DNA of 64,000 nt from an uncultured Actinomycetes bacterium. GTDB lineage: Bacteria; Actinomycetota; UBA4738; HRBIN12. Made by a program: the position numbers and the translations under genes. Numbering within the stretch: the stretch's first letter is position 1; every line of letters begins with the position of its first letter. Shown piece by piece: positions 34,494-63,913 of this stretch. The stretch is taken from NCBI GenBank assembly GCA_963777495.1, contig CAVZQM010000001.1, positions 387,594 to 451,593 on the forward strand, given 5' to 3'. The notes beneath the pieces are model-generated. The model was not told the origin of the DNA. It searched no databases and saw only the letters and a list, made by a program, of their open reading frames with translations.

Positions 34494-35135
34494 TTATCCT
34501 CGCAGGTTCCGTTGCGTGCGCGGGGGCGGCGCGAACCGCTCCAAACTTCCGGTGTCGTTCACGAGCAGGACGTGCGGGCCCGCGTCTCCGACCGAGATCA
34601 CCGACACCGACGCCGGGTCGGACATCGTCCGCTGGAACAGGTCCAGGTGTGCGCCGGAGAGATGCGACACGAGCATCCTGATGATGTCGCCGTGCGAGGC
34701 GACGGCCACACGACCACGCGGGTGCCGCGCCGCGATCGCATGGATCTCGTCCAGCGCGCGCGCCTGCGCGTCGGCGAACGACTCCCCGTCGGGGAACCGG
34801 AACTGCGACGGGCGATGGATCAGCTGCTTCCACGCCCGTGTGCGGCGTACCTGCGCGAGCGAACGGCCGGTCCACGTGCCGACGTCCATCTCGATCAGCC
34901 GCTCGGTCTTCACGATGTCCAGTCGCTGACGAACCGCGAGGGGGGCGAGCGTCTCCACGCAGCGATCGAGCGGGCTCGAGTACGCGGCCGTCAGGCGGAT
35001 CCGCGCGAATCGATCCGCGAGCGCCTCGGCCTGCGCACGCCCACGCTCGTCGAGCGGGATCCCCGCCGTTCGGCCGTACAACGTCTTGCCCGTCACGGCG
35101 GTGAGCCCGTGCCGGATCAGGAAGAGGGTGGTCAC
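34494..35135 (-). CDS. Histidine phosphatase, MSMEG_4193 family
   Basis: LIRHG, SSPLDRC, SHGDIIR, DLFQR. Confidence 0.9.
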   Translation of the reverse strand: MTTLFLIRHGLTAVTGKTLYGRTAGIPLDERGRAQAEALADRFARIRLTAAYSSPLDRCVETLAPLAVRQRLDIVKTERLIEMDVGTWTGRSLAQVRRTRAWKQLIHRPSQFRFPDGESFADAQARALDEIHAIAARHPRGRVAVASHGDIIRMLVSHLSGAHLDLFQRTMSDPASVSVISVGDAGPHVLLVNDTGSLERFAPPPRTQRNLRG

Positions 35136-36295
35136 GGACCGGCAGGATACGCGGCGGGCAGGATGCACCTCGACGACTGGAGCCTCGTCCGAGCTCGCTC
35201 CGGACCTCCACGTGGGCCGCCGTGGTTCTCCGCCACATGCTTCACGATCGCCAGGCCGAGACCCGTGCCTCCCGTCTCGCGTGAGCGAGCTCGGTCCACC
35301 CGATAGAAGCGCTCGAACACCCGCGGCAGCTCGCGCGACGGGATACCGGCCCCCGTGTCCTCGACCGTGAGCACCACTTCCGCCGCCGTCGGTGCGACGC
35401 GCACCTCGACCCTGCCCGTCGGAGCGGTGTAGCGGATGGCGTTGTCGATGAGGTTGCGGATCAGCAGGGAAAGATCCTCTCGAGGAGCCGACCACGATCG
35501 CCGGTCTGGGCGCGTCGACCTCGAGCTCGAGTCCGGCCTCTCGCGCGGCGTTCTCGCACCGTTGGCCCTCTTCTCGAACGAGCGCGTCCAGCGGGACACG
35601 TTCGTCGAGCGCGCTCTCCGATTCCAGGCGGGAGAGGTCGAGGAGGTCGGCCACGATCCGTGAGAGACGCATGGCATCGCGCTCCACCTGGGCCGCGAAG
35701 CGCGGGATGGCCTCGGGGTCGTCATGCGCCGCGTGACGAAGGGTCTCCGCGCCGGCCTGGATCGAGGCCGCCGGCGTCTTGAGCTCGTGGGAGGCGTTCG
35801 CGACGAAGTCCTTGCGGATCGCCTCCACGCGGCGTGTCTCGCTGACGTCGGTGACCACCAGCAAGACGGAGCCGTCCGTGCCCACCGGCGTGGCGGTGAA
35901 GCGGAGCCAGCGGGCGGGCGCGCCCATCTCCGTCTCGATCGACTGCGGCCGGCGGTTCGCCGTCACGTCCTCCGCCATCTCGCGGACCGACGGCGGGTAG
36001 AGCTGCGACACGCCCTCCGGCCGACGGCCGAGGTGAAGGGTCAACGCGTCGTTGCCGAAGGCGGTCATGCCCCGACCGTCCAGGAGCAGGACCCCTTCCT
36101 GCATCGACCCGAGCGTGAGGTCCTGCACGCGAAGCGCCTCCGCGGCCACCGCCCGGCTCTCCTCGGCCGCGAGGTGCGCGGACAGGCGCGCGTCGTCCGC
36201 GCGAGCCGAGGGCCGACGAGCGGGCTCGCCCATGCGAGCGTTGCCCCTACCGCGATGCCGGCCAAGGCCGTCACGATCAGCCAGGTCGCCTCCAC
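35132..36295 (-). CDS. senX3: SenX3/PhoR-like sensor histidine kinase; frameshifted
   Basis: N-terminal TM helix, PAS-like region, DFVANASHELKTP, RNLIDNAIRY, DTGAGI, FERFYRVD, GTGLGLAIVKH. Confidence 0.85.
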
Positions 36296-36336
36296 GCCGG
36301 GAGTCTAGAGCGGGCACCGGTGTCCCCGACCAGGAC

Positions 36337-36471
36337 GTTCGCTGTTCGTTCACCTCGGTGACGCTGAGTGGCCATCCGGGCGACCGTGCGGCGCCGACCA
36401 GCAGGAACGGACCCGACCGCCGGTTCTCGACGTTCACCCTGCGTTCACGTCGGTGCCCCCACCCGTCCACC
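36337..36471 (+). promoter_or_regulatory. PHO-box-like 11-nt direct repeats between senX3 and pstS
   Basis: GTTCGCT/GTTCACC at 36337/36348; GTTCACC/GTTCACG at 36432/36443; GTCCACC at 36465 in the same 11-nt register. Confidence 0.75.
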
Positions 36472-36519
36472 CGGACTCCATAGCATCCGGCCCGGTCATA
36501 TCCGAAGAGGAGGATGTAG

Positions 36520-37579
36520 ATGCGCAACAAGCGGAAGTACTCCGGCATCGTCGTGGGGTTGCTCGTCCTCGCGCTCGTGGGCGCGGCATGTGGCGGCGAC
36601 GACGACGAGCCCGGTGGCTCGACCGGCGGGACACCGGATCGCCGGAGCGACCGGTGGCGAGGCTCACCGGCACGATCAACGATCTCCGGATCCTCGACGG
36701 TGCGAACCGATCTCCAGCCTGGTCGCGGAGCTGTTCGACGACGACCAACCCGGACGTGGCGATCGCCGTCGACGGGCCCGGCACGGGTGACGGGTTCGAG
36801 CTCTTCTGCAAGGGCGAGATCGACATCAGCGACGCCTCCCGGCCGATCGACGAGGAAGAGGTTGCCGCGTGTGAGGACGGCCGGCATCGACTTCGTCGAG
36901 CTCGAGGTCGCCTTCGACGGCATCACCGTGATGACGAACCCGGCCAACGCCGACGTCGCGTGCCTGAACCTCGGCGACCTCTACGCGCTGTTCGGCCCGG
37001 AGTCGGAAGGATTCTCGTCCTGGTCGGACGCCAACGACCTCGCCGACCGAGGTGGGCGGCAACGGTGGGTTCCCCGACGCGCCGCTCGAGATCACGGCGC
37101 CCGGTGAGGAGTCCGGCACCTACGACGCGTTCATCGAGCTCTCGGGCTTCGAGGACACCGCGATCGCCCAGGGCGTGCCGGAAGACGGCGCGGCCGCACT
37201 TCGGCCCGACTACCAGTCGTCGGCGAACGACAACGTGATCATCCAGGCGATGGACGGGTCGCCGAGCGCCATCGGGTTCGTCGGCTTCGCGTTCGCTGAG
37301 GCGGCCGGAGACACGATCAAGGAGATCGAGGTGGACGGCGGGAGCGGCTGCGTCGCGCCGTCGGCCGAGACGATCGCCGACGGCAGCTACCCGCTGTCAC
37401 GGTCCCTCTACATCTACGTCAACACCGACAAGCTCGCGGAGAACCCGGCGCTACGGCCGCCTACGTCGACTACTACCTGAGCGACGAAGGTCTCTCGACC
37501 GCGGTGGCAGAGACCGGCTACGTGGACCTCCCTCCGACCGGATCGAAGCGACCCGGACGGCGTGGGCGGCTGCCGCTAG
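36520..37579 (+). CDS. pstS: Phosphate-binding lipoprotein PstS; several frameshifts
   Basis: Lipobox GAAC, GTGDGFELFCKGEIDISDASR, PGEESGTYD, YPLSRSLYIY. Confidence 0.88.
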
Positions 37580-37599
37580 ACGTTCGACGCATCCGAGGA

Positions 37600-37629
37600 A
37601 GGGCCGGACGCACGACCGCGTCCGGCCCT
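37600..37629 (+). terminator. Stem-loop between pstS and pstC
   Basis: AGGGCCGGACGC-ACGACC-GCGTCCGGCCCT, 12-bp stem. Confidence 0.7.
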
Positions 37630-37670
37630 CCCCCCGCATCCGACGAACCACTAGGCTCTCGAGGACGCAG

Positions 37671-38624
37671 ATGGCGACTTCCTTCTCCGACGACGCGGTC
37701 ACGATCCGGCAACTGCGCGGAAACCCGCGCCGGCGACGGAAAGAGGCTGTGGTGCGCTTCATCCTCGCGGCGGCCGCGGTGTTCTCGATCGTGATCAGCG
37801 TCGCCATCGTGGTCGCGATCATCGGCCGAGCCATCGGGTTCCTCTCCGATGTGGATCTCTCGGCGCTCCTCGACGGGAGCTGGCGGCCCCGCCAAGGGCA
37901 ATTCGATGTGCCGACGCTGCTGATCGGATCGTTCGTTGTCACCGCGATCGCGATGCTCGTCGCGGTTCCGCTGGGGCTCGGCGCCGCGATGTTCCTGTCC
38001 GAGTACGCGAGTCCCCGGGTCCGGCGGCGGCTCAAGCCGATCCTGGAGACGCTCGCCGGTATCCCGAGCGTGGTGATCGGGTTCTTCGCGCTGACGGTCC
38101 TGAATCCCTCCATCGTGCAAGGGGTCTTCGGCGCGACGAGCACCTTCACGATGGCCGCCGCCGGGATCGGGGTCGGGATCCTCACGATCCCCTTGATCGC
38201 GTCGGTCGCCGAGGATGCGATGTTCGCCGTCCCGGGGCGCTCCGTGAGGCGGCCTACGGGATCGGCGCCAAGCAACGCACCGTGACGACGAAGGTCGTGT
38301 TCCCGGCCGCGATCTCCGGGATCGTCGCCGCGGTGATCCTCGGGATCTCGCGCGCGCTCGGGGAGACGATGGTCGTCGCCATCGCGGCGGGTGGGACCGG
38401 CAACGCCGTGCGAACCTGGGATCCCTTCGTGTCCCGGGCAGACCATGACCGCGGCCATCTCGAGTCTCGCGATCGGATCGGACTCCGTGAAAGCGGGTGG
38501 GGGAGCCGGCCAGGTGAACCCGTTCGACTCGCTCTACTTCGTCGCGTTGGTGTTGTTCGCCCTGACGCTCGCCCTCAACGTGATCAGCGAACGGTTCGTC
38601 CGCCGCTATCGGAAGGCGTACTGA
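37671..38624 (+). CDS. pstC: Phosphate ABC permease PstC; frameshifted
   Basis: [19 protein letters not shown]. Confidence 0.9.
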
Positions 38625-39573
38625 TGTCCACCATCGCGGTGCCGTCGGCCACTCGGGCATCCGTCGAGGAGGCGTTGAAAGGCAAGGGCGTCGACGTGCG
38701 AGGGAAGGTCTTCGAGGGAGTCTTGTTGCTCTCGCTCGATCATCTCCCTCGGTGTCCTCATCGCTCTCTTGGTCTCGATCGTGTCCGACGCCATCCCGGT
38801 CTTCCAAGAGCGCGGCATGGACTTCGTGACGAGCGACACATCGGCGTTCGACTTCCGGACCGGAGTCAAGCAAGGCATCCTCGGGTCGATGATCCTGATC
38901 GGGTTCGTCGCGGTCTTCGCCTTGCCCCTCGGGGTCGCCGCCGCGGTCTACTTGCAGGAGTACGCGAGGGACACCCGGATGAACCGTCTCCTGATCACGA
39001 ACATCCGGAACCTGGCCGGCGTCCCATCGATCGTCTACGGCATCCTGGGACTCGTCGTCTTCGTGGAGCTGATGGGCAGCATCACCGGACCCGGGAACGT
39101 CAATGGGCGCACCGCGGTCTCGGGCGGCCTGACGCTCGCGGTCCTCGTGATGCCGTTCATCATCATCATCACGATGGAGGCGCTCAGGGCCGTGCCGCGC
39201 GGTATCCGCGAAGCGGCGTACGGCGTCGGTGCCACGCGCTGGGAGGTCGTTCGCAGTCACGTGCTGCCGTACGCCGCGCCCGGCGTCCTGACGGGCTGCA
39301 TCCTGGCGCTCGCTCGGGCGTTCGGCGAGACGGCGCCGCTGCTGCTCGTCGGCGCGTTGACGGGATACTTCAGCACCGGTGCCGCGGACTTCTTCGAGCA
39401 GATCCGCGGTCCGTATCACGGCGCTTCCCACCCTGGTCTTCTCCTGGTCGCGCAACCCGGGTGATGAGTGGCAGGCCAACGCCGCCGCGGCGATCGTGGT
39501 GTTGTTGGTCGCGATCCTCGCGGTGAACGCGGTGGCCATCATGTTGAGGAACCGGTATGAACGAAAGTGGTGA
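38624..39573 (+). CDS. pstA: Phosphate ABC permease PstA; frameshifted
   Basis: [21 protein letters not shown]; TGATG coupling to pstC. Confidence 0.9.
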
Positions 39574-39577
39574 TCCG

Positions 39578-40468
39578 ATGGACACAGAACTGACGAAGGT
39601 CGAGACCACCGCCGACGACGCGCTCCAAACCGAGGAGGGCGCACGCTTGGTCGTGAAGGTACCCCGGGAGCCCGTCTCGCAAGAGGCACAACGCGAGGTG
39701 GTCTTCGATGTGCAGGCACTCTCGGTCTACTACGGGGCGTTCCGCGCCGTCCGCGACGTGACGATCCCGATCCTCAAGAACGAGATCACCGCGCTGATCG
39801 GACCGTCGGGGTGCGGGAAGACGACCTTCCTCCGCTGCCTGAATCGGATGAACGACCTGATCGAGGGTGCGAGGGTCGAAGGGACGTTGCTGTACCACGG
39901 CGTCGATCTCTACGACGAGCAGGTGGACGCGGTCGAGGTTCGCCGCCGGATCGGCATGGTCTTCCAGAAGCCGAACCCGTTCCCGAAATCGATCTACGAC
40001 AACATCGCGTTCGGACCGAAGATCGCGGGGTTCAAGGGCAACATGGACGATCTGGTGGAGGAGAGCCTCCGCCGCGCCGCGCTGTGGGACGAGGTGAGGG
40101 ACAAGCTGAAGGAATCGGGCATGGCACTTTCCGGTGGGCAGCAGCAGCGGTTGTGCATCGCCCGGGCCATCGCGACGCGTCCGGACGTGATCCTGATGGA
40201 CGAGCCGTGCTCCGCCCTGGACCCGATCGCGACCGCACGGATCGAGGATCTGATGCAGGAACTCGTGTCCGACTACACCATCGTGATCGTGACGCACAAC
40301 ATGCAGCAAGCCGCCCGCGTCTCGGACCGGACGGCGTTCTTCACGGTCGAGGTTTCCGACACCGGGCAGCGAACGGGCACGGTGGTGGAGTTCGACCGCA
40401 CGGAGACGATCTTCACGAACCCGGGTGATCAACGGACAGAGGACTACGTGACGGGACGGTTCGGATGA
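39578..40468 (+). CDS. pstB: Phosphate ABC ATPase PstB
   Basis: [37 protein letters not shown]. Confidence 0.96.
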
Positions 40469-52240: not shown

Positions 52241-53116
52241 GTGGGACGGGGTACGAAGGGCGCGCTGTCGTCCGTCGCCGGGCTCGGCACCGCCGGGCCG
52301 GTGATGGTGATCGGCGGCGCCGAAGACAAGTTCCGCGATAAGGCCATCCTCACCCGCTTCGTGAAGTTCGCCGGGGGCGCCGAGGGGCACCTCGTGGTCA
52401 TCTCCACCGCCTCGTCGCTCGGAGATCAAGCCACGGAGATGTACCGGGAGCTGTTCCTGGGGCTCGGCGTCGGCTCCGTCTCCGGGCTTCGACCCGAGGA
52501 GCGCGATGAGGCCGACGACCCATCGTCGGTCGCGGCGCTCAAGGGAGCGACCGGCGTCTACCTCACCGGAGGGAACCAATCGCGCCTGGCGTCGGTGGTG
52601 GCGGGGACGCGCCTCGGTGACGCGCTGTTCCTGGCACATGATCGCGGCGCTGTGCTGGCGGGGACCTCGGCCGGGGCGAGCGCCATGGCCTCGCACATGG
52701 TGGCGTTCGGACGTTCGGGGTCGACGCCCAAGAACCGGATGGCGCAGCTCTCCGCCGGCCTCGGCATCCTCCAAGGGCTGGTCATCGACCAGCACTTCGA
52801 GCAACGGGGACGCATCGGCCGGTTGCTGGCGATCGTCGCCGGCTCGCCGTCGCTCCTCGGCATCGGGCTGGACGAGGACACATGTGCCATCGTGCACGCC
52901 GATCAGACGGTGCAGGTGATGGGCCGTGGTGCGGTGACGATCGTGGACGGCTCCGGGGTGAAGACGGACGCGTATCGCGGGAAGGGCTACCGTCCACTCA
53001 TGATCTCGGGCGCCGTGCTGCACTCGCTCCCGGCCGGCTACTGGTTCGACCTCCGGACGCGCAAGCTCATGGCGGCCGATGACGCCCTGGCGGCGGAGCG
53101 GGAGGCGTCGGAGTGA
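52241..53116 (+). CDS. cphB: Cyanophycinase (peptidase S51)
   Basis: IIGGAEDK-like motif, LTGGNQ, GTSAGA nucleophile, IDQHF, GLDEDT. Confidence 0.94.
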   Translation: MGRGTKGALSSVAGLGTAGPVMVIGGAEDKFRDKAILTRFVKFAGGAEGHLVVISTASSLGDQATEMYRELFLGLGVGSVSGLRPEERDEADDPSSVAALKGATGVYLTGGNQSRLASVVAGTRLGDALFLAHDRGAVLAGTSAGASAMASHMVAFGRSGSTPKNRMAQLSAGLGILQGLVIDQHFEQRGRIGRLLAIVAGSPSLLGIGLDEDTCAIVHADQTVQVMGRGAVTIVDGSGVKTDAYRGKGYRPLMISGAVLHSLPAGYWFDLRTRKLMAADDALAAEREASE

Positions 53117-55963
53117 CGGCGAGCGGCGCCAAAACCAGGACCGATCGACAGCGGGCCAAGCGCGAGCCCGCATCCAAGAAGAAGGTCCGGCCCAAGCCCG
53201 ATCTCACGATCCTGCAGACGCAGGTCTTCCGCGGCCCGAACTACTGGTCATACGAGCCGTGCATCCGCATGCTCGTGGACCTCGGGTCGCTCGAGGAGTG
53301 GCCGTCCAACACGATCCCCGGCTTCAACGAGCGGCTCCTGGAGCTGTTGCCCGGCGTCGGTGAACACTCCTGCTCGCTGGGCAAGCGCGGGGGGTTCCGT
53401 GCACGCCTGATCGACGGCACGTGGCTGGGCCACGTCGCCGAGCATGTGGCGCTGGAGCTCCAACGGGAGTCGGGCGCGCACATCTCGCGGGGAAAGACCC
53501 GGAGCGCGGGCGCGGCCGGGCAGTACAACGTGATCTACGGCTACGCCGAGGAGGTCGTCGGCGCGGAAGCCGGTCGGCTGGCGGTTCGACTGGTGAACCA
53601 CCTGGTCAAGGCCGAGCCGGAGTTCGAGTTCCTCGCCGCGCTCGAGCGGCTCATCCTGCTGGCGGAACGGCGACAGTTCGGTCCCTCGACGCAGGCCATC
53701 CTGGACGAGGCGGCCAGCCGCGACATCCCGTTCATCCGACTCAACGAGCAGTCGCTGGTGCAGCTGGGGCAGGGGAAGTACCAACAGCGGATCCGCGCGA
53801 CCATGACGTCGCGGACCAGCGCCCTCGCCGTGGACATCGCGGGCGACAAGAAGATGACGAACCAGCTCCTGGGTTCCGCCGGGCTTCCTGTGCCCCGAAG
53901 CGAGGTCGTCCGGAACGAGGACGACGCCGTCGCGGCCGCGAAACGGATCGCGTTCCCCGTCGTCACGAAGCCGCTCGACGGCAACCACGGTCGCGGGGTG
54001 GGGCTGGACATCCGGACGGACCGCGCGGTCCGTACGGGGTTCAAGCGCGCGGTCAAGGAATCGCGCAATGGGCGTGTCGTGGTGGAGAGCTTCGTCACGG
54101 GGAGCGACTACCGCGTGCTGGTGATCGGCGGGCGCATGGTCGCCATCGCGGAGCGCGTGCCGGCGCACGTCATCGGCGACGGGAAGCACGCGGTGCGCGA
54201 GCTGGTCGAGATCACGAACCAGGACCCGCGCCGAGGCATCGGTCACGAGAAGGTGCTGACCCGCATCAAGATCGACGACGCCGCGATCGAGCTCGTGAAG
54301 AAGCAGGGGTACGGGATCGAGGATGTTCCCCCGAAGGACGAGATGGTGAAGCTCGCGGATACCGGGAACATGTCGACGGGCGGCATCTCGATCGACCGAA
54401 CCTGGGACGCCCACGAGGACAACGTCGAGATCGCGGAGGAGGCAGCGCGGGTGGTCGGGCTGGACGTTGCCGGCATCGACTTCCTGGCGCCCGACATCTC
54501 GCAACCCGTCCGAGAGACGGGAGGGGCGATCGTCGAAGTGAATGCCGCGCCGGGGTTCCGGATGCATACCCACCCGACGGAGGGCGAGCCGCAATACGTC
54601 GCGAAGCATGTGGTGGACCTGCTCTTCCCACCAGGGACGCCGGCGCGGATACCGATCGTCGCGGTGACCGGCTCCAACGGCAAGACCACGACGACCCGGA
54701 TGATCGCCCACATCTTCCGCGGGATGGGTCGTCAGGTCGGCGTCACCTCGACGGACGGCATCTACATCGACGAGCGGCTGGTCAAACGCGTGGACGCATC
54801 GGGTCCGAAGTCCGCGCTGATGGTGCTGCAGAACCCGCGCGTCGACATGGCGATCTTCGAGGTCGCACGCGGCGGGATCCTGCGCGAGGGTCTCGGCTAC
54901 GAGCGCAATGACGTCGGCGTGGTCCTGAACGTCACGGGCGACCATCTCGGGCTCAAGGAGATCGACACGCTGGAGCAGTTGGCGGCGGTCAAACAGGTCG
55001 TGGTAGAAGCGGTGCCCCGCAGCGGATCCGCGGTGCTGAACGCCGACGATCCGCTGGTGGTGGAGATGCGCCGTCACTGCGCAGGGAGCGTGATCCTGTT
55101 CACGATGGCCGAGAAGCACGACCTGGTCGAGCGGTGGGTGCGCCGCGGCCGCAAGGCGGTGGTGCTCGAGCGGAGCCCACGTGGCGAGATGATGGTGATC
55201 AAGGAAGGCCGCCGCACGATGCCCATCGCGTGGGTCCACACGCTGCCCGCGACGTTCGAGGGCAAGGCTCGGATGATGGTCCAGAACGCGATGGCGGCCG
55301 CGGCGGCGGCACACGCGGCCGGGGCGCACCTGCACGACATCCGTCAGGGTCTCCGATCGTTCACCACGTCCGTGTATCAGGCGCCCGGCCGCCTGAACCT
55401 GTTCGATCTGGATGGGGTGAAGGTCCTCCTGGACTACGCACACAACGCCGCGGGGCTGGAGGCGCTCGGCGACTTCGTGGAGCGCATGACATCGGACGTG
55501 CAGGGTGGAGAGCAGCCCGGCGCGGCGTCGTGGACGGCGAACATCAGGGTGGCGGTCGTCGCGACGGCGGGGGATCGTCGGGATGAGGACATGCACGATC
55601 TCGGCAGGGTGGCGGCCCGGTACTTCGACGAGGTGATCATCCGCGAGGACCGCAACCCGCGCGGACGGCCTCGAGGACGAACCGCCGAGCTCATCCAGGA
55701 GGGCGTGCGCCAGGCACAATCGGCGGGAGGAGCCCGGGCCGGCAACGTGGAGATCGTCCTCGACGAGATGGAGGCATCGCGCCGCGCGCTCGATCGTTCG
55801 CGGCCGGGTGACCTCGTGGTGCTCTGCGTGGATTATGCGACCGAGGTCTTCAGGGAGATCGAGTCCCGGCGCGGGTCCGCGTCTCCCCAGGTGCTGTTGG
55901 CATCCGATGGGGACGGGGGCGGCGCGGCGGCCGGCGGCGATCCCGACCTGCTCGGCATCCTGA
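53113..55963 (+). CDS. cphA: Cyanophycin synthetase CphA1
   Basis: RGPNYW, EHSCS..GHVAEH N domain, FGPSTQAI, KPLDGNHGRG ATP-grasp, EVNAAPGFRMH, VTGSNGKTTT, DYAHN; probable true stop is TGA 55961-55963 after removing one C. Confidence 0.95.
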
Positions 55964-56304
55964 TGGCCGTCGATCTCGCGGCGATCCTCCAGGCCCTCCA
56001 GGAACGACGGCGCGAGCTCGAGGAGGAGCTGGCGGTCCTCACGGCGGTACCGCGCGATCCGATGGCGGCGGTGTCGTTCGGCAAGCGGATCGGCGACGGC
56101 ACCACGGAGGCGGTCGAGCGTCTCAACTCGGTGGGCGCCGCGAACTCGATCGCCGCCACGTTGGCCGACGTGGAGCGAGCACTGGACAAGCTCGCCGAAG
56201 ACACCTACGGCCTGTGCGATGGATGCGGGAGACCGATCGGCGAGGAGCGTCTCGAGGCGATCCCCTGGGCCACGCGCTGCATCGACTGCGCGCGGCTCCG
56301 CTGA
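55963..56304 (+). CDS. TraR/DksA C4-type zinc-finger protein (in frame with cphA in this sequence)
   Basis: Coiled coil then YGLCDGCGRPIGEERLEAIPWATRCIDC; ATG in a TGATG context. Confidence 0.85.
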   Translation: MAVDLAAILQALQERRRELEEELAVLTAVPRDPMAAVSFGKRIGDGTTEAVERLNSVGAANSIAATLADVERALDKLAEDTYGLCDGCGRPIGEERLEAIPWATRCIDCARLR

Positions 56305-59053: not shown

Positions 59054-60529
59054 TCAGGCGTCGCCGGGCGGCCGGATCGCGTCCAACGCCTCCAGTTGCG
59101 ACGCCAGCCACTGCGGGGGCGTGTGCGCCTGCACGGTCCTGGACAGTCCCCGTCCGCGCCGCATGCGCTCCTCCTCCGGCATCTCCAGCGCGTCGCGGAT
59201 GGCGTCGGCGGTCTCTCGGAGGTCGAACGGGTTCACGGTGAGCGCGTGCTTGCCGAGCCTGCCGTACGCGCCCGCGTTCCGCGACAGGATCAGCACGCCG
59301 TGTTGGCGGTTCACGAGCGGCCCCTCCATCGCGACCAGGTTCATGCCGTCGTAGACGGGGTTCACCAGCAGTGCGTCGTAGAGGCCGTACGCACCCACCG
59401 CGTATCCGTAGTCCTCCTGGACCCGGACCTCGATCGGTTGCCAGTCTTCGGTCGCCAACTCCTTGTTGATCCGTTCGACCTCCGCCATGCAGTCGTCGCC
59501 GTAGGCCTGGTACTCCGGGAGCGCCTCGCGCGACGGGCTGAACAGCGCCAGGAACTTCACGCGGCCCTGCCACCGCGGGTGGCTCTTGAGGAACAGCTCG
59601 TAGGCCAGGAAGCCCCGCAGGATGTTCTTCGACGGTTCGAATCGATCGACCCGAAGCAGCAGCTTGGTCTCGCCCTTCCACGCCTTCAGCTCGCGCCGAC
59701 CCTCCTTGATCTCGGGTTTGGCGGCCGTCTCGCGGATGGGGTGGGCGCTCACCGCCACCGGGAACGCTCGCGCCGACGCCACGCGATCTCCGGTGACGAA
59801 CCGGCCTCCCCGGAGGACGCGGAACCCGGACAGCCCACGCACGGACAGGAGGAAGCTCTCGACCCACGCGCGCGACTGGAACGCGACCACGTCGGCGCCC
59901 GCCATGCCGCGGAGGATCGCGTCGCGCATGTGCACCGGGAGGATGCGCAGGTACGTCGCGCCCGCGAACGGGGTGTGCGTGAAGTGGACGATGCGCGCGT
60001 CGGGGCGGAGCTCACGGAGCATCGCCGGGACCAGTGCCAGGTGGTAGTCCTGGATCAGGTAGACGGGGTCGCGGTCTCCCTCGTCCGCGAGCACCTGGGC
60101 GAACGAGCGGTTCGCCTCCACGAACTCTTGCCAGTTGGCCTCGGTCAACTCGTCGAACGTCGGTGTCCGGGCGGTGTCCCAGAGGTAGTGGTGGAGGAAC
60201 CAGAGGATCCGGTTGGACATCTGGTTGTAGTAGGCGTCGTACCGCTCCGGGGGGATGACCACGAACCGGACGCGTTGGTGCGCGTCGGGATCGATCTCGA
60301 AGCCCTCGGCCGCAACCTCCCGGTCACCGTCGGTCATGGCCGCGGCCACCCACGTGGTGTCGTCCCGGAAGAACACCCCGGACAGCGCCGTGACCAGCCC
60401 ACCGGCCCCGCGCTGGGAGATCAGCTCGCCGGACGCGTCGCGCTCGAAGCTCACCGGTCCGCGGTTGGAGGCCACGACGATGGCCGACTCCATAGCGCTC
60501 GGGAAGGCGCCCATCGCGTCGGACCGCAT
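59054..60529 (-). CDS. otsA: Trehalose-6-phosphate synthase (GT20)
   Basis: VVASNRGP, GAGGLVTAL, QDYHL, HFTHTPF, RVDRFEPSKN, DGMNLVAME. Confidence 0.92.
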   Translation of the reverse strand: MRSDAMGAFPSAMESAIVVASNRGPVSFERDASGELISQRGAGGLVTALSGVFFRDDTTWVAAAMTDGDREVAAEGFEIDPDAHQRVRFVVIPPERYDAYYNQMSNRILWFLHHYLWDTARTPTFDELTEANWQEFVEANRSFAQVLADEGDRDPVYLIQDYHLALVPAMLRELRPDARIVHFTHTPFAGATYLRILPVHMRDAILRGMAGADVVAFQSRAWVESFLLSVRGLSGFRVLRGGRFVTGDRVASARAFPVAVSAHPIRETAAKPEIKEGRRELKAWKGETKLLLRVDRFEPSKNILRGFLAYELFLKSHPRWQGRVKFLALFSPSREALPEYQAYGDDCMAEVERINKELATEDWQPIEVRVQEDYGYAVGAYGLYDALLVNPVYDGMNLVAMEGPLVNRQHGVLILSRNAGAYGRLGKHALTVNPFDLRETADAIRDALEMPEEERMRRGRGLSRTVQAHTPPQWLASQLEALDAIRPPGDA

Positions 60530-60587
60530 CCGTTCGAGTCTAGAGAACGGCACGGAAACCGGACCCGGCCACGCGGGGTGCGATCGC

Positions 60588-62321
60588 CTACGGTGCGGCG
60601 CCGGCCTTCGCCTTCGACGTGCGTGCCTGCTTCACGATGCGCCGGACGTCGGCCGGCCCCAGGCGTTCGCCGCCGTGGTCATCGAGCCAGGAGAAGATCT
60701 CGGGGCGCATCCCGAGCGCGGTGACCCCGATCACGTCGCCGCTGCGCGCCCCCGCGATCATCGTCCGCAACGCGATCAACTCGTCGTTGTACACGGGGAC
60801 GACCTCGACGCCCGCGTCACGTGCTCCCTCGCGGAGCCGTTCGACGATGTCCTCGCCGGAGCGACCCCGGAGGTAGTGGATGAGTTCGGCGATGCCCAGG
60901 TGGTCCGAGCCTACGGCGGCACGGAACGCGAACGCATGGAGGATGCGGTCGGTGCGGTCGCCGGCGGTGCAGATGGCCAGCCACACGTCGCGGCCGTGCC
61001 TGCGGAGTCCGTCCAACACCTCGGTCAGCCCGATCATGCCCGCCTCGTTATGGGCGTAGTCGACCACGACGATGCGGCCGTCGATCCGGAAGAGGTTCGC
61101 GCGTCCCGGATTCCGCTCCGGATCCAGGACGAACGATCTTCAGTCCCGCGACGACCGCTCGCTCGGGCAGGCCGATCGCCAACCCCGCGGCCGCGGCCGC
61201 CATGGCGTTCTGCAGGTTCGGGCGGGAGATGCCGGCGAGCGTGACCGGGATATCCGTGAGTGGACCCAGGGGATGGGTCTCGTGGCGTTCGACCCACGCC
61301 AGGTGGCCGTCCAGGACGGTCATGCCCCTGCCGCCGTCGCCGAGCGCCTCGCGGATCGCCGGGTGGTTGGGGTCGAGCGAGAAGAGCCATGGACGCCCCG
61401 TCGCGTGACGCCGCATCGCGAGCACCCGCGGGTCGTCCGCGTTCAGCACATCCCACCCGTTCGGTCGAGTGATCCGCGTGACCACGCCTTTCACCTCGGC
61501 GAGCTGATCAACGGTGTCGACACCGTGGAGGCCGAGGTGGTCCTCGCTCACGTTCGTCACGACGGCGACGTCGTTGTGCCGCACGCCGACGCCCCGGAGC
61601 AGCATGCCGCCTCGCGCCGTCTCGAGCACGGCGACGTCGGGATCCTGGTGCGAGCGCGCGAGCGGCGCCGCCGAACCCGGAGTAGTCGCCGGCCTCGACC
61701 AGCTGGCCGTCGTCGCGGAACACCCCGTCGGTCGACGAGTACGCGACGGTCTTCCCCGCCGTGCGCACCAGGTGCGCGAGCAACCGGACCGTGGTCGTCT
61801 TCCCGTTGGTGCCGGTCACCTGGACGACCGGAACGTGGGGATCGGGCACGGTCGGCTCGTCTCCGGGATCCACCGCTCGCAGGCGTCGCGCCGGCCTCGG
61901 CGACCAGCCGGTCAGGCGAACGACGCAGCAGCGCGGCCATCCCTGCGGCCACTTCGTTGCCGAGTGCCTCGGCGGCCGCTCGGCGGCGCCAGGGGAACGC
62001 CACCACGATCTGGTCGCGCTCCGGTCCCGGCCGGGCGCGCACCGCCAGCCGGCGAGCGCCGCCGGCAACCGCGATCCGCCGCGTGAGGAACGCGGCGAGA
62101 CGCGCGACCACCCGCCGTCGCTGCTCGCTCTCCGGCGGGCCCGGTCTTGACGTTGCCGGGAACGCCCACCCGGCCGACGATCGTGACGGATCCGGTCGTC
62201 GGATGCCACGCAGCCATCCCGGGACCGCGAGCGTGAGCTTGATCGCCGGTCGTGTGAAGTACAGGTTGGGGCCTTCCAGCACGCGGAGCTCGATCGAGCC
62301 GGACGGCGTCGGCCACGTCAT
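60588..62321 (-). CDS. CphA-like protein: N domain plus Mur-ligase (M) domain, no ATP-grasp domain; several frameshifts
   Basis: ELRVLEGPNLYFTRPAIKLTL; VTGTNGKTTT; ETARGGMLLRG; VTNVSEDHLG; DYAHNEAG; about 577 codons. Confidence 0.82.
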
Positions 62322-62614
62322 GCCTCGGGCGGTTCGGCCACGGACTCGATCGCCCGTGCGAGCGCGATGTCGTGATCGGTCACGCCACCCTCGTCGTGCG
62401 TGGAGAGCGTCACCAACACGCGGTTGTAGTGGTTCTCGAGGTCCGGATGATGCCGGGCCTCGTGCGCCTTCGGCGCCAGCCGGTCGATGAACGCGATCGC
62501 CGACAAGAATCCCTTGAAGACGAATTCCTTCCGGATCGCGCGGCCGTCGAACTCCCACCCGGGAAGGCCGTCATCCAACGCGGTCCGGACGTCGTCGTCG
62601 GAGAGCGTCGTCAT
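62318..62614 (-). CDS. phhB: Pterin-4-alpha-carbinolamine dehydratase
   Basis: HHPDL..YNRV...LSTHDEGGVT..D. Confidence 0.92.
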   Translation of the reverse strand: MTTLSDDDVRTALDDGLPGWEFDGRAIRKEFVFKGFLSAIAFIDRLAPKAHEARHHPDLENHYNRVLVTLSTHDEGGVTDHDIALARAIESVAEPPEA

Positions 62615-63913
62615 GCGCGGAACTGTATGTCAGGTGGCGGGTCGACGCGATAGTGCCGCAGTTCCGGGTAGATGACCGCGACGACGCCCGCGCCCACGAT
62701 GCATGCGAGCCCGCCCGACACGACCGAGATCGTCGGGGTGAACCACGTCGCCACCAGCCCCGCCTCGAAGTCGCCCAGACGTGGACCGCCGGACACCACC
62801 AGGATGAGGATCTGGGACATCCTGCCCCGCAGGCTGTCCGGGGTCTCGAGCTGCATGATCGTGTTCCGGAAGATGGCGGAGATCACGTCGGCAGCGCCCG
62901 CGAGCGCCAGGAAGCACAGCGCCAGGATGAGGTTCGCGCCCACCAGACCGAACGCGGTGATCGCCGAGCCCCACGCGACCACGGCCCAGATGACTGCGGA
63001 CCCTTGCCGCCTGACGTTCTTGACCCAGCCGGCCGTGAGGGCGCCCACGAACGCGCCGAGGGCCGGTGCGGCGAAGAGGAGTCCGACCACCTCCGGTCCC
63101 CGATGGAACTGGGAGATGGCAAGGAACGTGAACAGCGCCTGCGGCATCCCGAAGATCATCGCGATCAGGTCGATGACGAACGTCGACTGGATCAAGCGGT
63201 TCCGTCGAACGAACGCGAATCCCTCCTTGACGGCCGCCCATCCCGTGGCGCTCCCCGGCTCTCGATCGGGCGGCATCGGATGCATCATGAACGCCGCGAG
63301 GAAGAGGGCTCCGTACGTGACGAGGTCGATCGCGTACGCCGCGCCGAAACCGACCTTCGCCGATCAGGAGACCGCCGACGCCCGAGCCGACGATCCCGAC
63401 CGTCTGCCAGAGCACCTGGTTGAGCGCGACCGCGGACGGCATCAGCGTCTTCCCGACGAGCCGCGGCGTCATCGCCGCTCGGGTCGGGGAATCGACGGAG
63501 CTCACGAACGCATGGAGCGCGCTCGCCAGGTAGATCAGCCAGACGGGCGGGTGCCCGTGGATGGCCCCACCGAGCAGGATCGCCGAGCTGATCGTATGCG
63601 CCACCTGCGCCCACATGAGCGTCCGGCGACGATCGTGCGCGTCGATGAACGAGCCGCCCACCAGCGTGCCGACGAAGATCCCGAACAGCCCGAAGAGTCC
63701 CACCATCCCGACGGCCGCGGCCGAGCCGGTGAGTTCGGTGACCTGGACGTAGATCGCGATCCGCGCGAACTGCGACCCGAGCTCGGAGAGGAAGCCTCCG
63801 CCCCACAACAGGCGGAAATCACGCGAGACCCTGAGCGGCGTGACGTCGAGCGCGATCCGGCGAAGCCGCGAACGAGGCGGGTTCGGGTCGTCGGGCGTTC
63901 CGGCGGGCGTCAC
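62611..63913 (-). CDS. MFS transporter (EntS/MFS_3-like); frameshift near 63350
   Basis: LRVSRDFRLLW, DAHDRR, MIFGMPQALF, TPDSLRGR, GGPRLGD. Confidence 0.9.

What the first reader, a model, noticed from the sequence alone, without database searches (positions are those of the whole stretch)
60588..62321. CphA paralogue with N and Mur-ligase domains but no ATP-grasp domain, near a complete cphB-cphA pair
Seen: after joining frames this is a protein of about 577 aa. It begins like CphA (LEGPNLY vs RGPNYW) and carries the M-domain motifs (VTGTNGKTTT, ETARGG, TNVSEDHLG, DYAHN). The ATP-grasp motifs present in the neighbouring CphA (KPLDGNHG, EVNAAPG) and its C..HxxEH site are missing. Known: in CphA1 the ATP-grasp domain extends the Asp backbone and the M domain adds Arg; cyanobacterial CphA2 keeps the ATP-grasp activity and lacks a working M site. 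This protein is the mirror image. Inference: a stand-alone side-chain ligase or CphA partner subunit that could change polymer composition or restore Arg on the polymer, i.e. an undescribed cyanophycin arm.
Basis: partly seen in the sequence, partly recalled or inferred. Interest (0 to 1): 0.78.

Follow-up and report, generated by a model that had tools for sequence, protein, structure and literature searches.

The report
Cyanophycin synthetase paralogue without ATP-grasp domain
This gene encodes a conserved, unstudied "half" cyanophycin synthetase that keeps the polymer-holding and side-chain-ligase domains but lacks the backbone-building domain; it accompanied the full synthetase gene in 39-40 of 41 sampled cphA-bearing Actinomycetota genomes, and the breaks in this copy look like assembly errors.

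Summary
The gene lies on the minus strand at 62316..60588 and starts at a GTG, not the ATG at 62321. It is interrupted by seven single-base insertions, not a few joined frames.

With those bases removed it is a 573-aa ORF, 94.9% identical to an intact metagenomic orthologue. Its dN/dS is 0.08-0.12, like its neighbours. The whole assembly carries about 4 candidate frameshifts per 10 kb, mostly insertions, against 0-1.1 in clean related loci. The breaks are therefore most likely long-read assembly errors.

Domain results:
- The N-terminal 146 aa is a true CphA N domain (hhalign 96.9%; the top 15 Foldseek hits are all CphA1/CphA2). It lacks the Cx19HxxEH peptidase site.
- The rest is a CphA-type Mur-ligase M domain (TIGR02068 E 1e-99 versus MurE 1e-25) with every ATP/Mg catalytic residue invariant.
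- There is no ATP-grasp domain.

In 401 sampled Actinomycetota genomes, 41 carry cphA. Of those, 39-40 also carry this gene, usually within 0.3-7 kb. No genome carries it without cphA.

Three Mlid residues near-invariant in CphA1 are replaced, so the amine substrate may not be arginine. The best reading is a trans-acting cyanophycin side-chain ligase, which I found undescribed in the literature.

The parts
60588..62316 (-). G-less CphA paralogue ('N-M ligase'). It is 573 aa once seven inserted bases are ignored, with a GTG start at 62316 and a TAG stop at 60590-60588.
   Evidence: DNA alignment to L003. The repaired ORF is 94.9% identical to P0001. Many intact orthologues of about 570 aa exist.
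61874..62316 (-). CphA-type N domain (aa 1-146). It has the GPN motif at 62273-62259, lacks the Cx19HxxEH peptidase site, and carries a net charge of about +14 in this clade.
   Evidence: hhalign against CphA1 N domains gives Prob 96.9%, E 1.6e-10; the reversed control gives 0.2%. The AF2 model has pLDDT 95, and the top 15 Foldseek hits are all CphA1/CphA2 N domains. Charge.
61134..61837 (-). Mcore, the Mur-ligase middle domain (aa 159-392). It contains the P-loop TGTNGKTT, ETARGG (the Mg-binding Glu), NVSEDHLG, and the Lys of AEVK.
   Evidence: Pfam PF08245. TIGR02068 profile positions 478-846 match at E 1e-99. Invariant columns.
60705..61133 (-). Mlid, the Mur-ligase C-terminal domain (aa 393-535). 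It contains NPGR, DYAHN, GDRTD and YLRGR. The CphA1-specific R/D/F residues of GDRRDxD..FD are replaced.
   Evidence: Pfam PF02875. Column comparison with 53 CphA1 sequences and 2 MurE sequences.
61137..62298 (-). Span that holds the seven single-base insertions (62298, 62211, 62187, 62142, 61890, 61649, 61137). Each shifts the frame by +1.
   Evidence: (gap list). There is no shared sequence motif at the sites, and orthologues are uninterrupted.
62318..62614 (-). Pterin-4a-carbinolamine-dehydratase-like gene (98 aa). Its stop lies 1 nt before the N-M start.
   Evidence: ORF list. Pfam PF01329 is recorded on the orthologous gene in L003.
62630..63913 (-). MFS_3 transporter, the first gene of the apparent MFS-PCD-NM-otsA operon. 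It is broken by one +1 frameshift near 63357.
   Evidence: tblastn with the intact L004 orthologue splits into two frames. Pfam MFS_3/MFS_1 on the orthologues.
59054..60553 (-). otsA (trehalose-6-phosphate synthase), 34 nt downstream of the N-M stop.
   Evidence: ORF. 86% identical to the L004 Glyco_transf_20 gene.
53113..55959 (+). Complete cphA1 with N, ATP-grasp G and M domains and the Cx19HxxEH motif. In the window it is artificially fused to the next gene by an extra C at about 55959/55960.
   Evidence: TIGR02068 scores 1173 bits against a cutoff of 850. Pfam. Junction comparison with L004.
55963..56304 (+). DksA/TraR-type zinc-finger gene. In relatives it is a separate 116-aa gene overlapping the cphA stop (TGATG).
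   Evidence: Pfam PF01258. L004 gene calls and junction.
52241..53116 (+). cphB (cyanophycinase, Peptidase_S51), overlapping the cphA start.
   Evidence: Pfam PF03575, E 1e-21.

Best explanation
The locus encodes a functional (in the organism) two-domain paralogue of cyanophycin synthetase. It has a CphA-type N domain fused directly to a CphA-type Mur-ligase M domain (Mcore plus Mlid), with no ATP-grasp G domain.

[quoted passage not shown] This protein keeps exactly those two parts and all ATP/Mg residues. The most likely mechanism is therefore a trans-acting, ATP-dependent ligase that holds cyanophycin or an Asp-ended or under-decorated intermediate and attaches an amine (an amino acid) to an Asp side chain, working alongside the neighbouring CphA1 and CphB.

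Three Mlid residues near-invariant in CphA1 are replaced by other family-specific residues, so the amine may differ from arginine.

Shown here: the domain homologies, conservation of catalytic residues, purifying selection, and near-obligate linkage and co-occurrence with cphA. Inferred: the substrate and the reaction.

The seven frameshifts in this copy are most likely assembly errors, not biology.
For: Domains.
- N domain: hhalign Prob 96.9%, E 1.6e-10 over 138 columns, against 0.2% for a reversed control.
- The AF2 model of aa 1-146 has pLDDT 95. Its top 15 PDB Foldseek hits are all CphA1/CphA2 N domains (E 3e-5 to 4e-2); the next hits are unrelated at E above 0.1.
- M domain: NCBIfam cphA model E 1e-99 to 1e-101 versus MurE 1e-25.
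- A family profile hits CphA1 chains 7LG5/7TXV at E 1e-127.
- The full-length AF2 model has pLDDT 90 and pTM 0.86, and its best PDB hits are CphA1 at E 2e-34.

Catalytic residues. The equivalents of TeCphA1 K499, T500, T522, E558, F692, R731 and H748 (PMC9427784) are invariant or nearly invariant (T188) in the family: K165, T166, T188, E224, F387, R397 and H414.

Association with cphA.
- Among 41 relatives, every genome with the gene has cphA on the same contig, and genomes without it lack cphA.
- In the 401-genome phylum sample, 41 genomes carry cphA, 39-40 of those also carry the gene, and none carries the gene alone.
- Three cases that looked unlinked have cphA elsewhere in the genome.
- The convergent arrangement NM-> <-cphA<-cphB holds in Kribbella, Terrabacter and a Chloroflexia MAG.

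Selection. dN/dS is 0.08-0.12, the same as neighbouring genes.

Assembly errors.
- About 1,300 candidate frameshifts genome-wide, 73% of them insertions.
- The detector gives 0-1.1 per 10 kb on clean loci.
- Independent +1 insertions break the MFS gene and fuse cphA to dksA.
Against: There is no biochemical or genetic data for any member, and I found no paper describing the family.

CphA1 next door has an apparently complete M domain, so the need for a second Arg-adding module is unexplained.

The CphA1-specific Mlid residues (R 90%, D 94%, F 98% in GDRRDxD..FD) are absent. The substrate could therefore be something other than Arg, or not a cyanophycin end at all.

The strongly basic N domain is specific to this clade and not a family property.

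Reads were unavailable, so a true recent pseudogene in this one genome cannot be excluded.

Genomes in the co-occurrence counts are phylogenetically related (23 genera), so the counts overstate independence.
Confidence: 0.65

Rival explanations
1. This particular copy is a true pseudogene. The seven insertions are real mutations, and the organism has lost the function while keeping cphA and cphB.
For: Seven frameshifts in 1.16 kb is denser than the genome average of about 0.4 per kb. The neighbouring otsA, GH15 and most of cphA read through uninterrupted.
Against: After removing the seven bases the ORF has no stop and no other indel. It is 94.9% identical to an intact orthologue, with dN/dS 0.077. 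All events are +1 insertions, the dominant error type of this assembly (73% of about 1,300 candidates). Similar dense clusters occur elsewhere in the window, at about 35-39.5 kb. The adjacent MFS and cphA genes carry the same kind of error. In the phylum sample cphA almost never occurs without this gene.
Confidence: 0.1
2. The enzyme is active but works on a substrate other than cyanophycin, such as a small peptide, a free amino acid (for example making a beta-aspartyl dipeptide or osmolyte) or a cell-wall precursor. In that case the linkage to cphA reflects shared nitrogen or stress regulation.
For: The Mlid pocket residues differ from CphA1. In this clade the gene sits in an apparent operon with an MFS transporter and otsA rather than with cphA. 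The gene and cphA are convergent rather than co-transcribed.
Against: The protein retains a CphA-specific N domain, whose only known roles are binding or cleaving cyanophycin (PMC9262961). The co-occurrence with cphA is near-perfect and stays perfect even when the genes are unlinked. The MFS/otsA neighbours are not conserved outside the close family, whereas cphA/cphB are. There is no Mur-ligase N-terminal UDP-sugar domain and no DNPR motif.
Confidence: 0.17
3. It is a non-catalytic partner, a scaffold or regulator that binds CphA1 or the polymer through its N and Mcore surfaces, much as the inactive M domain of CphA2 is kept for structure.
For: In CphA1, Mcore makes the tetramer contacts with Gcore (PMC9427784). 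CphA2 shows that a cyanophycin enzyme can keep a dead domain (PMC10273328).
Against: Every ATP- and Mg-binding residue and the full Mlid are invariant across members as low as 31-35% identical. That pattern is not expected for a non-enzyme. CphA2's dead M domain is truncated, whereas this one is full length.
Confidence: 0.05

Closest known systems
Cyanophycin synthetase 1 (CphA1; TIGR02068; PDB 7LG5, 7LGJ, 7LGQ, 7TXV, 7WAC/7WAE)
   Same: Both have a homologous N domain and a homologous Mur-type M domain (Mcore plus Mlid), with the same P-loop, Mg-binding Glu, DHL, Lys, NPGR and DYAHN motifs. The gene sits beside cphA1/cphB.
   Different: The roughly 330-aa ATP-grasp G domain is entirely absent. 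The N domain lacks the Cx19HxxEH zinc-peptidase site. The near-invariant Mlid residues of CphA1 (R, D and F of GDRRDxD..FD) are replaced, and family-specific G209, R233 and Y473 appear instead. The cphA model scores 332-341 bits against a cutoff of 850. In an ML tree of M domains, a branch with 98/98 support separates the G-less proteins from all 53 CphA1 sequences, apart from two outlying rows (P0216 and P0211).
Cyanophycin synthetase 2 (CphA2; PDB 7TA5, 8FXH)
   Same: It is a reduced CphA paralogue that retains the N domain, and it occurs alongside a full CphA1.
   Different: The reduction is the opposite one. CphA2 keeps an active G domain and has a truncated, inactive M domain. This protein has no G domain and a full, apparently active M domain.
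MurE and other Mur ligases, and FolC
   Same: Same ATP-dependent amide-ligase fold and catalytic motifs in the middle and C-terminal domains.
   Different: There is no N-terminal UDP-MurNAc-binding domain and no DNPR motif. Scores are far below the family cutoffs (MurE 86 bits versus 257), and the match to the CphA M domain is much stronger.
Pfam DUF4938 (PF16292) plus Mur-ligase proteins of about 570 aa
   Same: They are also G-less, with an N-terminal 'RRLTGPN' start followed by a CphA-like M domain. In the examples seen here they lie directly downstream of cphA in Gammaproteobacteria, Myxococcota and Planctomycetota. They share G209, R233 and Y473 and also lack the CphA1 Phe.
   Different: Their N-terminal region is more divergent and is not aligned by HMMER to this subfamily. 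The gene is co-directional with cphA rather than convergent. They are likewise uncharacterised.

Membership tests
CphA1 (cyanophycin synthetase 1) | N-terminal CphA N domain | tested here: met
   hhalign Prob 96.9%, E 1.6e-10. The Foldseek top 15 hits are CphA1/CphA2 N domains. Pfam PF18921 itself does not reach threshold.
CphA1 (cyanophycin synthetase 1) | ATP-grasp G domain that extends the Asp backbone | tested here: not met
   There are no ATP-grasp or RimK hits even at E up to 10. The cphA profile matches only positions 478-846. The N domain ends at aa 146 and the P-loop starts at aa 166.
CphA1 (cyanophycin synthetase 1) | Mur-type M domain with intact ATP/Mg site | tested here: met
   K165, T166, E224, D251-H252, K268, F387, R397 and H414-N415 are invariant and T188 is nearly invariant (93%). 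They were mapped to the TeCphA1 residues in PMC9427784.
CphA1 (cyanophycin synthetase 1) | Whole-protein score at or above the TIGR02068 cutoff (850 bits) | tested here: not met
   332-341 bits. The neighbouring cphA scores 1173 bits.
CphA1 (cyanophycin synthetase 1) | Synthesises cyanophycin from Asp, Arg and ATP | not testable with these tools
   Needs an enzyme assay.
CphA2 | Active G domain with a truncated, inactive M domain | tested here: not met
   There is no G domain, and the M domain is full length with all catalytic motifs.
MurE / Mur ligases | N-terminal UDP-MurNAc-peptide-binding domain and family-level HMM score | tested here: not met
   No Mur_ligase N-domain hit. TIGR01085 scores 86 bits against a cutoff of 257. 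The DNPR motif is replaced by YLRGR.
G-less CphA paralogues (N-M ligases; unnamed family) | About 570 aa, GPN-motif N domain directly followed by a CphA-like M domain, encoded in cphA-bearing genomes | tested here: met
   The repaired ORF is 573 aa and 94.9% identical to P0001. Architecture. Co-occurrence.
Pfam DUF4938 | Match to PF16292 | tested here: not met
   No hit for P0001, P0019 or P0097 at E up to 10. The more distant G-less protein P0185 does hit, at E 5e-29.

The most novel reading that the evidence does not exclude
In Actinomycetota and Chloroflexota, and with a sister subtype in several Gram-negative phyla, cyanophycin metabolism may be an obligate two-ligase system. CphA1 would build the chain, and a separate, anciently diverged N-M ligase would install a side chain other than arginine, or cap or re-charge chain ends. 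The polymer in these soil bacteria would then be chemically different from textbook cyanophycin. The MurE outgroup joins the M-domain tree on the G-less side. N-M proteins could therefore represent the ancestral architecture from which CphA1 arose by insertion of an ATP-grasp domain.
Probability: 0.2. Interest if true: 0.85.

Novelty: new variant of a known kind. Interest (0 to 1): 0.62.

Why it matters
Cyanophycin is a nitrogen-storage polymer of industrial interest. Its synthesis is thought to need only CphA1, or CphA2 for recycling.

A third, conserved CphA-derived enzyme accompanies almost every actinobacterial cphA sampled here. It keeps only the side-chain-ligating half. This points to an unrecognised step, such as polymer decoration, repair, capping or a different side chain.

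It is directly testable. Orthologues exist in cultured Kribbella, Terrabacter, Luteimonas and Plesiocystis. The assays (Pi release, LC-MS on defined primers, co-expression with CphA1 in E. coli) are established. If the enzyme uses a different amine, it would be a ready tool for making modified cyanophycins.

For this window specifically, the result also flags the assembly as rich in indel errors. Other 'frameshifted' or 'fused' genes in it, such as the cphA-dksA fusion, should not be over-interpreted.

Tried and rejected
1. Programmed frameshifting or quadruplet decoding. The seven sites share no motif and all orthologues are uninterrupted. Rejected.

3. Pfam recognition of the N domain. PF18921 gives no hit even at E up to 10, and HMMER against CphA1 chains gives only about 2 bits, colinear. 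Profile-profile and structure comparison were needed.

4. A basic N domain that grips bare poly-Asp. The +14 charge is confined to the window's clade, and distant members are acidic. It is not a family-level argument.

5. The MFS/PCD/otsA or PucR-aminotransferase neighbours as functional clues. They are not conserved beyond the close family.

6. P0245, which has a PF18921 N domain plus Mur ligase. On inspection it is a CphA1 with an internal deletion of most of the G domain. It keeps HxxEH and the CphA1 RRDxD/F residues, so it is not a member of this family.

7. Literature. Six full-text searches and targeted reading of four cyanophycin papers found no description of a G-less CphA paralogue. 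Sharon et al. 2021 (Nat Chem Biol) is not held in the library, so the Arg-pocket residues of CphA1 could not be taken from it.

8. MurE from the window's own genome as an alignment yardstick. No intact DNPR-containing ORF was found, so MurE was taken from two relatives instead.
Full report
**What is in the sequence**

The six-frame translation of 60500-62700 shows a CphA-like protein on the minus strand that keeps hopping frame. I aligned the DNA to an intact orthologue from a JGI metagenome contig (L003, encoding P0001, 573 aa). The window carries seven extra single bases inside the gene, at 62298, 62211, 62187, 62142, 61890, 61649 and 61137. All are +1 insertions and there are no other indels.

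The real start is the GTG at 62316 (VADAVR.IELRVLEGPNLYF), as in P0001 and P0004. Ignoring the seven bases gives a clean 573-aa ORF ending at the TAG at 60590-60588. It is 94.9% identical to P0001.

**Are the frameshifts real?**

Four indirect lines point to assembly error.

1. A GC3-periodicity HMM was run over the whole 3.18-Mb, 15-contig, 78%-complete assembly. It finds about 1,300 same-strand frame jumps that are not at stop codons, roughly 4 per 10 kb, and 73% are of the insertion type.
2. The same detector gives 0-1.1 per 10 kb on clean related loci, including isolate genomes of Kribbella and Terrabacter. It gives 4-11 per 10 kb on other visibly noisy long-read contigs.
3. Neighbouring genes show the same defect. 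The MFS transporter upstream is split by one +1 shift near 63357. cphA is fused to the following dksA/TraR-type gene by an extra C that destroys the TGATG stop/start overlap seen in the relative L004.
4. The repaired gene has dN/dS of 0.077 against L003 and 0.12 against L004. That matches L003 versus L004 (0.13) and otsA, GH15, cphA and cphB (0.05-0.13).

The seven sites share no motif and all orthologues are uninterrupted, so programmed frameshifting is not supported. I put a true pseudogene at about 10%.

**What the protein is**

*Pfam and NCBIfam.* Pfam finds only Mur_ligase_M and Mur_ligase_C. The NCBIfam cyanophycin-synthetase model TIGR02068 matches residues 159-529 to its positions 478-846 at E 1e-99 to 1e-101. 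The best MurE model reaches 1e-25. The whole-protein score (332-341 bits) is far below the 850-bit cutoff because two thirds of the model is unmatched.

*PDB sequence and fold searches.* A family profile hits the CphA1 chains 7LG5, 7TXV, 7WAC, 7LGN and 7LGM at E 1e-127 to 1e-114, and MurE only at 1e-32. An AlphaFold model of the orthologue P0019 is confident (pLDDT 90, pTM 0.86). Its best PDB matches are CphA1 structures at E about 2e-34.

*The N-terminal region.* The first 146 residues have no Pfam hit. However:
- A profile of 159 family N-termini aligns to a profile of 53 CphA1 N domains with hhalign probability 96.9%, E 1.6e-10, over 138 columns. A reversed-template control gives 0.2%.
- An AlphaFold model of the N-terminal region alone has pLDDT 95. 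It retrieves CphA1 and CphA2 N domains as its top 15 PDB hits (E 3e-5 to 4e-2, TM 0.5-0.62). Everything after that is unrelated, at E above 0.1.

So this is a genuine CphA N domain. The Cx19HxxEH zinc-peptidase motif gives CphA1 its primer-making activity (PMC9262961). Here it is absent: in the hhalign alignment H, E and H fall on R, A and F, and the Cys loop is gapped.

*No G domain.* The N domain ends at residue 146 and the P-loop starts at residue 166.

**Catalytic competence and what differs from CphA1**

The TeCphA1 M-domain residues shown to bind ATP and Mg are K499, T500, T522, E558, F692, R731 and H748 (PMC9427784). They correspond to K165, T166, T188, E224, F387, R397 and H414. These are invariant or nearly invariant (T188 93%) in the family, in members as low as 31% identical. 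So are the DHL motif, the Lys of AEVK and the GDR and RGR motifs.

By contrast, three Mlid positions that are near-invariant in 53 diverse CphA1 sequences are not kept in any of 43 diverse G-less proteins. These are R (90%) and D (94%) in GDRRDxD, and F (98%) in xFD. The G-less proteins instead share G209 (CphA1 has S at 96%), R233 and Y473.

This region aligns with the loops around the DNPR motif of MurE. From my own knowledge of MurE structures, that motif forms the incoming amino-acid site. It is therefore reasonable, but unproven, that the amine substrate is not identical to that of CphA1.

**Genomic association**

*Local context.* In the window the gene sits in a tight minus-strand series: MFS transporter, a pterin-4a-dehydratase-like gene (stop 1 nt before the start), the N-M gene, then otsA 34 nt downstream. 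After that come otsB, a GH15 glycosidase, the dksA-like gene, cphA and cphB.

*Same-order relatives.* Across 41 relatives, about 30 have the gene. Each of these also has a CphA M-domain hit on the same contig, 0.3-7 kb away. The 10 genomes without the gene also lack cphA.

*Phylum sample.* In an even sample of 401 genomes of the phylum, 41 have cphA. Of those, 39 have this gene, one more has a different G-less paralogue, and none has the gene without cphA.

*Wider loci.* A scan of species-representative genomes found full-length members in cultured Kribbella (2) and Terrabacter (2), and in Nocardioides, Chloroflexia and Sphaerobacteraceae MAGs. Wherever enough flank is available, the arrangement is convergent: NM-> <-cphA<-cphB. 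Three loci showed no adjacent cphA; two of them lie on short contigs. In all three, a full cphA lies elsewhere in the genome.

*What is not conserved.* The MFS, otsA and aminotransferase neighbours are conserved only in the close family. The conserved partner is cphA/cphB.

**A wider superfamily**

Ten of 68 cphA loci from other phyla carry a second M-domain gene without a G domain; in nine of these the loci show it lying next to cphA. Examples are Luteimonas lutimaris, Plesiocystis pacifica, Rubrivivax, Steroidobacteraceae and Planctomycetaceae. Their N-termini begin 'RRLTGPN', and one representative matches Pfam DUF4938.

In a maximum-likelihood tree of M domains, the window's subtype forms a clade (100/95). 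A branch with 98/98 support then separates it, together with 17 of the 19 other G-less proteins, from all 53 CphA1 sequences. The two exceptions are P0216, which sits just outside that branch, and P0211, which falls among the CphA1 rows. The MurE outgroup attaches on the G-less side. The outgroup branch is long, so the rooting is tentative. Even so, these are clearly not recent domain-loss copies of the neighbouring cphA.

**How it most likely works**

[quoted passage not shown] The protein here is exactly that N + Mcore + Mlid module, released from the G domain.

The best-supported mechanism is a trans-acting, ATP-dependent ligase. It would bind cyanophycin or its Asp-ended or under-decorated intermediates and add an amine to an Asp beta-carboxyl.

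The enzyme might duplicate CphA1's Arg addition, supply a different side chain, or cap chains. Sequence cannot settle this, although the altered Mlid residues lean towards a different amine.

Rival readings:
- a pseudogene in this genome (about 0.10)
- an active enzyme on a non-cyanophycin substrate (about 0.17)
- a non-catalytic partner (about 0.05)

**Novelty**

Six full-text literature searches and reading of the main CphA1, CphA2 and bioinformatics papers found no mention of a G-less CphA paralogue. Databases label these proteins 'Mur ligase family protein' or, wrongly, 'cyanophycin synthetase'.

Earlier notes from this scan on other genomes reached the same reading. I treated them as leads and re-derived the architecture, co-occurrence and phyletic spread here.

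I class this as a new variant of a known kind. This particular window copy is a poor exemplar because of the assembly errors.

Noticed in passing
window 55940-55975: cphA (949 aa) appears fused to the downstream DksA/TraR zinc-finger gene, giving a 1063-aa ORF. The relative L004 has GTC TGA TG, a stop/start overlap, where the window has ATC C TGA TG. A single extra C therefore removes the stop, so the fusion is an assembly artefact and not a new domain architecture.
   Followed up: yes
window 62630-63913 (minus strand), near 63357: The MFS_3 transporter upstream of the N-M gene is split into two frames by one +1 insertion. The orthologues are intact, at 426-427 aa.
   Followed up: yes
whole assembly G000; in the window especially 35000-39600: A GC3-periodicity HMM finds about 1,300 candidate frameshifts, roughly 4 per 10 kb, 73% of the insertion type, occurring in clusters. 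Clean related loci give 0-1.1 per 10 kb. Any 'frameshifted', 'fused' or 'split' gene in this genome should be treated as suspect.
   Followed up: partly
L017:8001-10172, L018:2459-4630, L015:8001-10235: In Terrabacter and one Actinomycetales MAG the N-M protein carries an extra helical C-terminal extension of about 160 aa, which looks TPR-like. This clade lacks it.
   Followed up: no
L026, L028, L033, L049, L059, L069, L080, L090 (second M-domain hit downstream of cphA): A second subtype of G-less CphA paralogue lies directly downstream of cphA, co-directional, in Gammaproteobacteria, Myxococcota, Planctomycetota and Limnocylindrales. Its N-terminus begins 'RRLTGPN', and one representative matches Pfam DUF4938.
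   Followed up: partly
protein P0245 (599 aa): This is a CphA1 with an internal deletion of most of the ATP-grasp domain. It keeps the PF18921 N domain with HxxEH and the CphA1-type GDRRDED/F residues. It is an independent, probably recent loss of the G domain and not part of the N-M family.
   Followed up: partly
13 of the 68 non-actinobacterial loci L023-L090: These loci carry tandem pairs of full-length cphA-like genes, each with two G and two M domains, as known for Betaproteobacteria.
   Followed up: no
window 62318-62614 (minus strand): A 98-aa pterin-4a-carbinolamine-dehydratase-like gene is wedged between the MFS and N-M genes, with 1-nt spacing to the N-M start. It is present in L003 but absent in L004. 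Its role here is unexplained.
   Followed up: no
L004:2466-8575 (the region beyond the window's right end in relatives): A PucR-type regulator, a class-III aminotransferase and two aldehyde dehydrogenases lie next to the MFS gene. The set looks like GABA or polyamine catabolism, and so possibly arginine breakdown. It is conserved only in the close family.
   Followed up: partly
ML tree of M domains: The MurE outgroup attaches within the G-less side of the tree rather than between the G-less proteins and CphA1. This hints that the N-M architecture could be ancestral to CphA1. The outgroup branch is long (3.3), so the placement is uncertain.
   Followed up: partly
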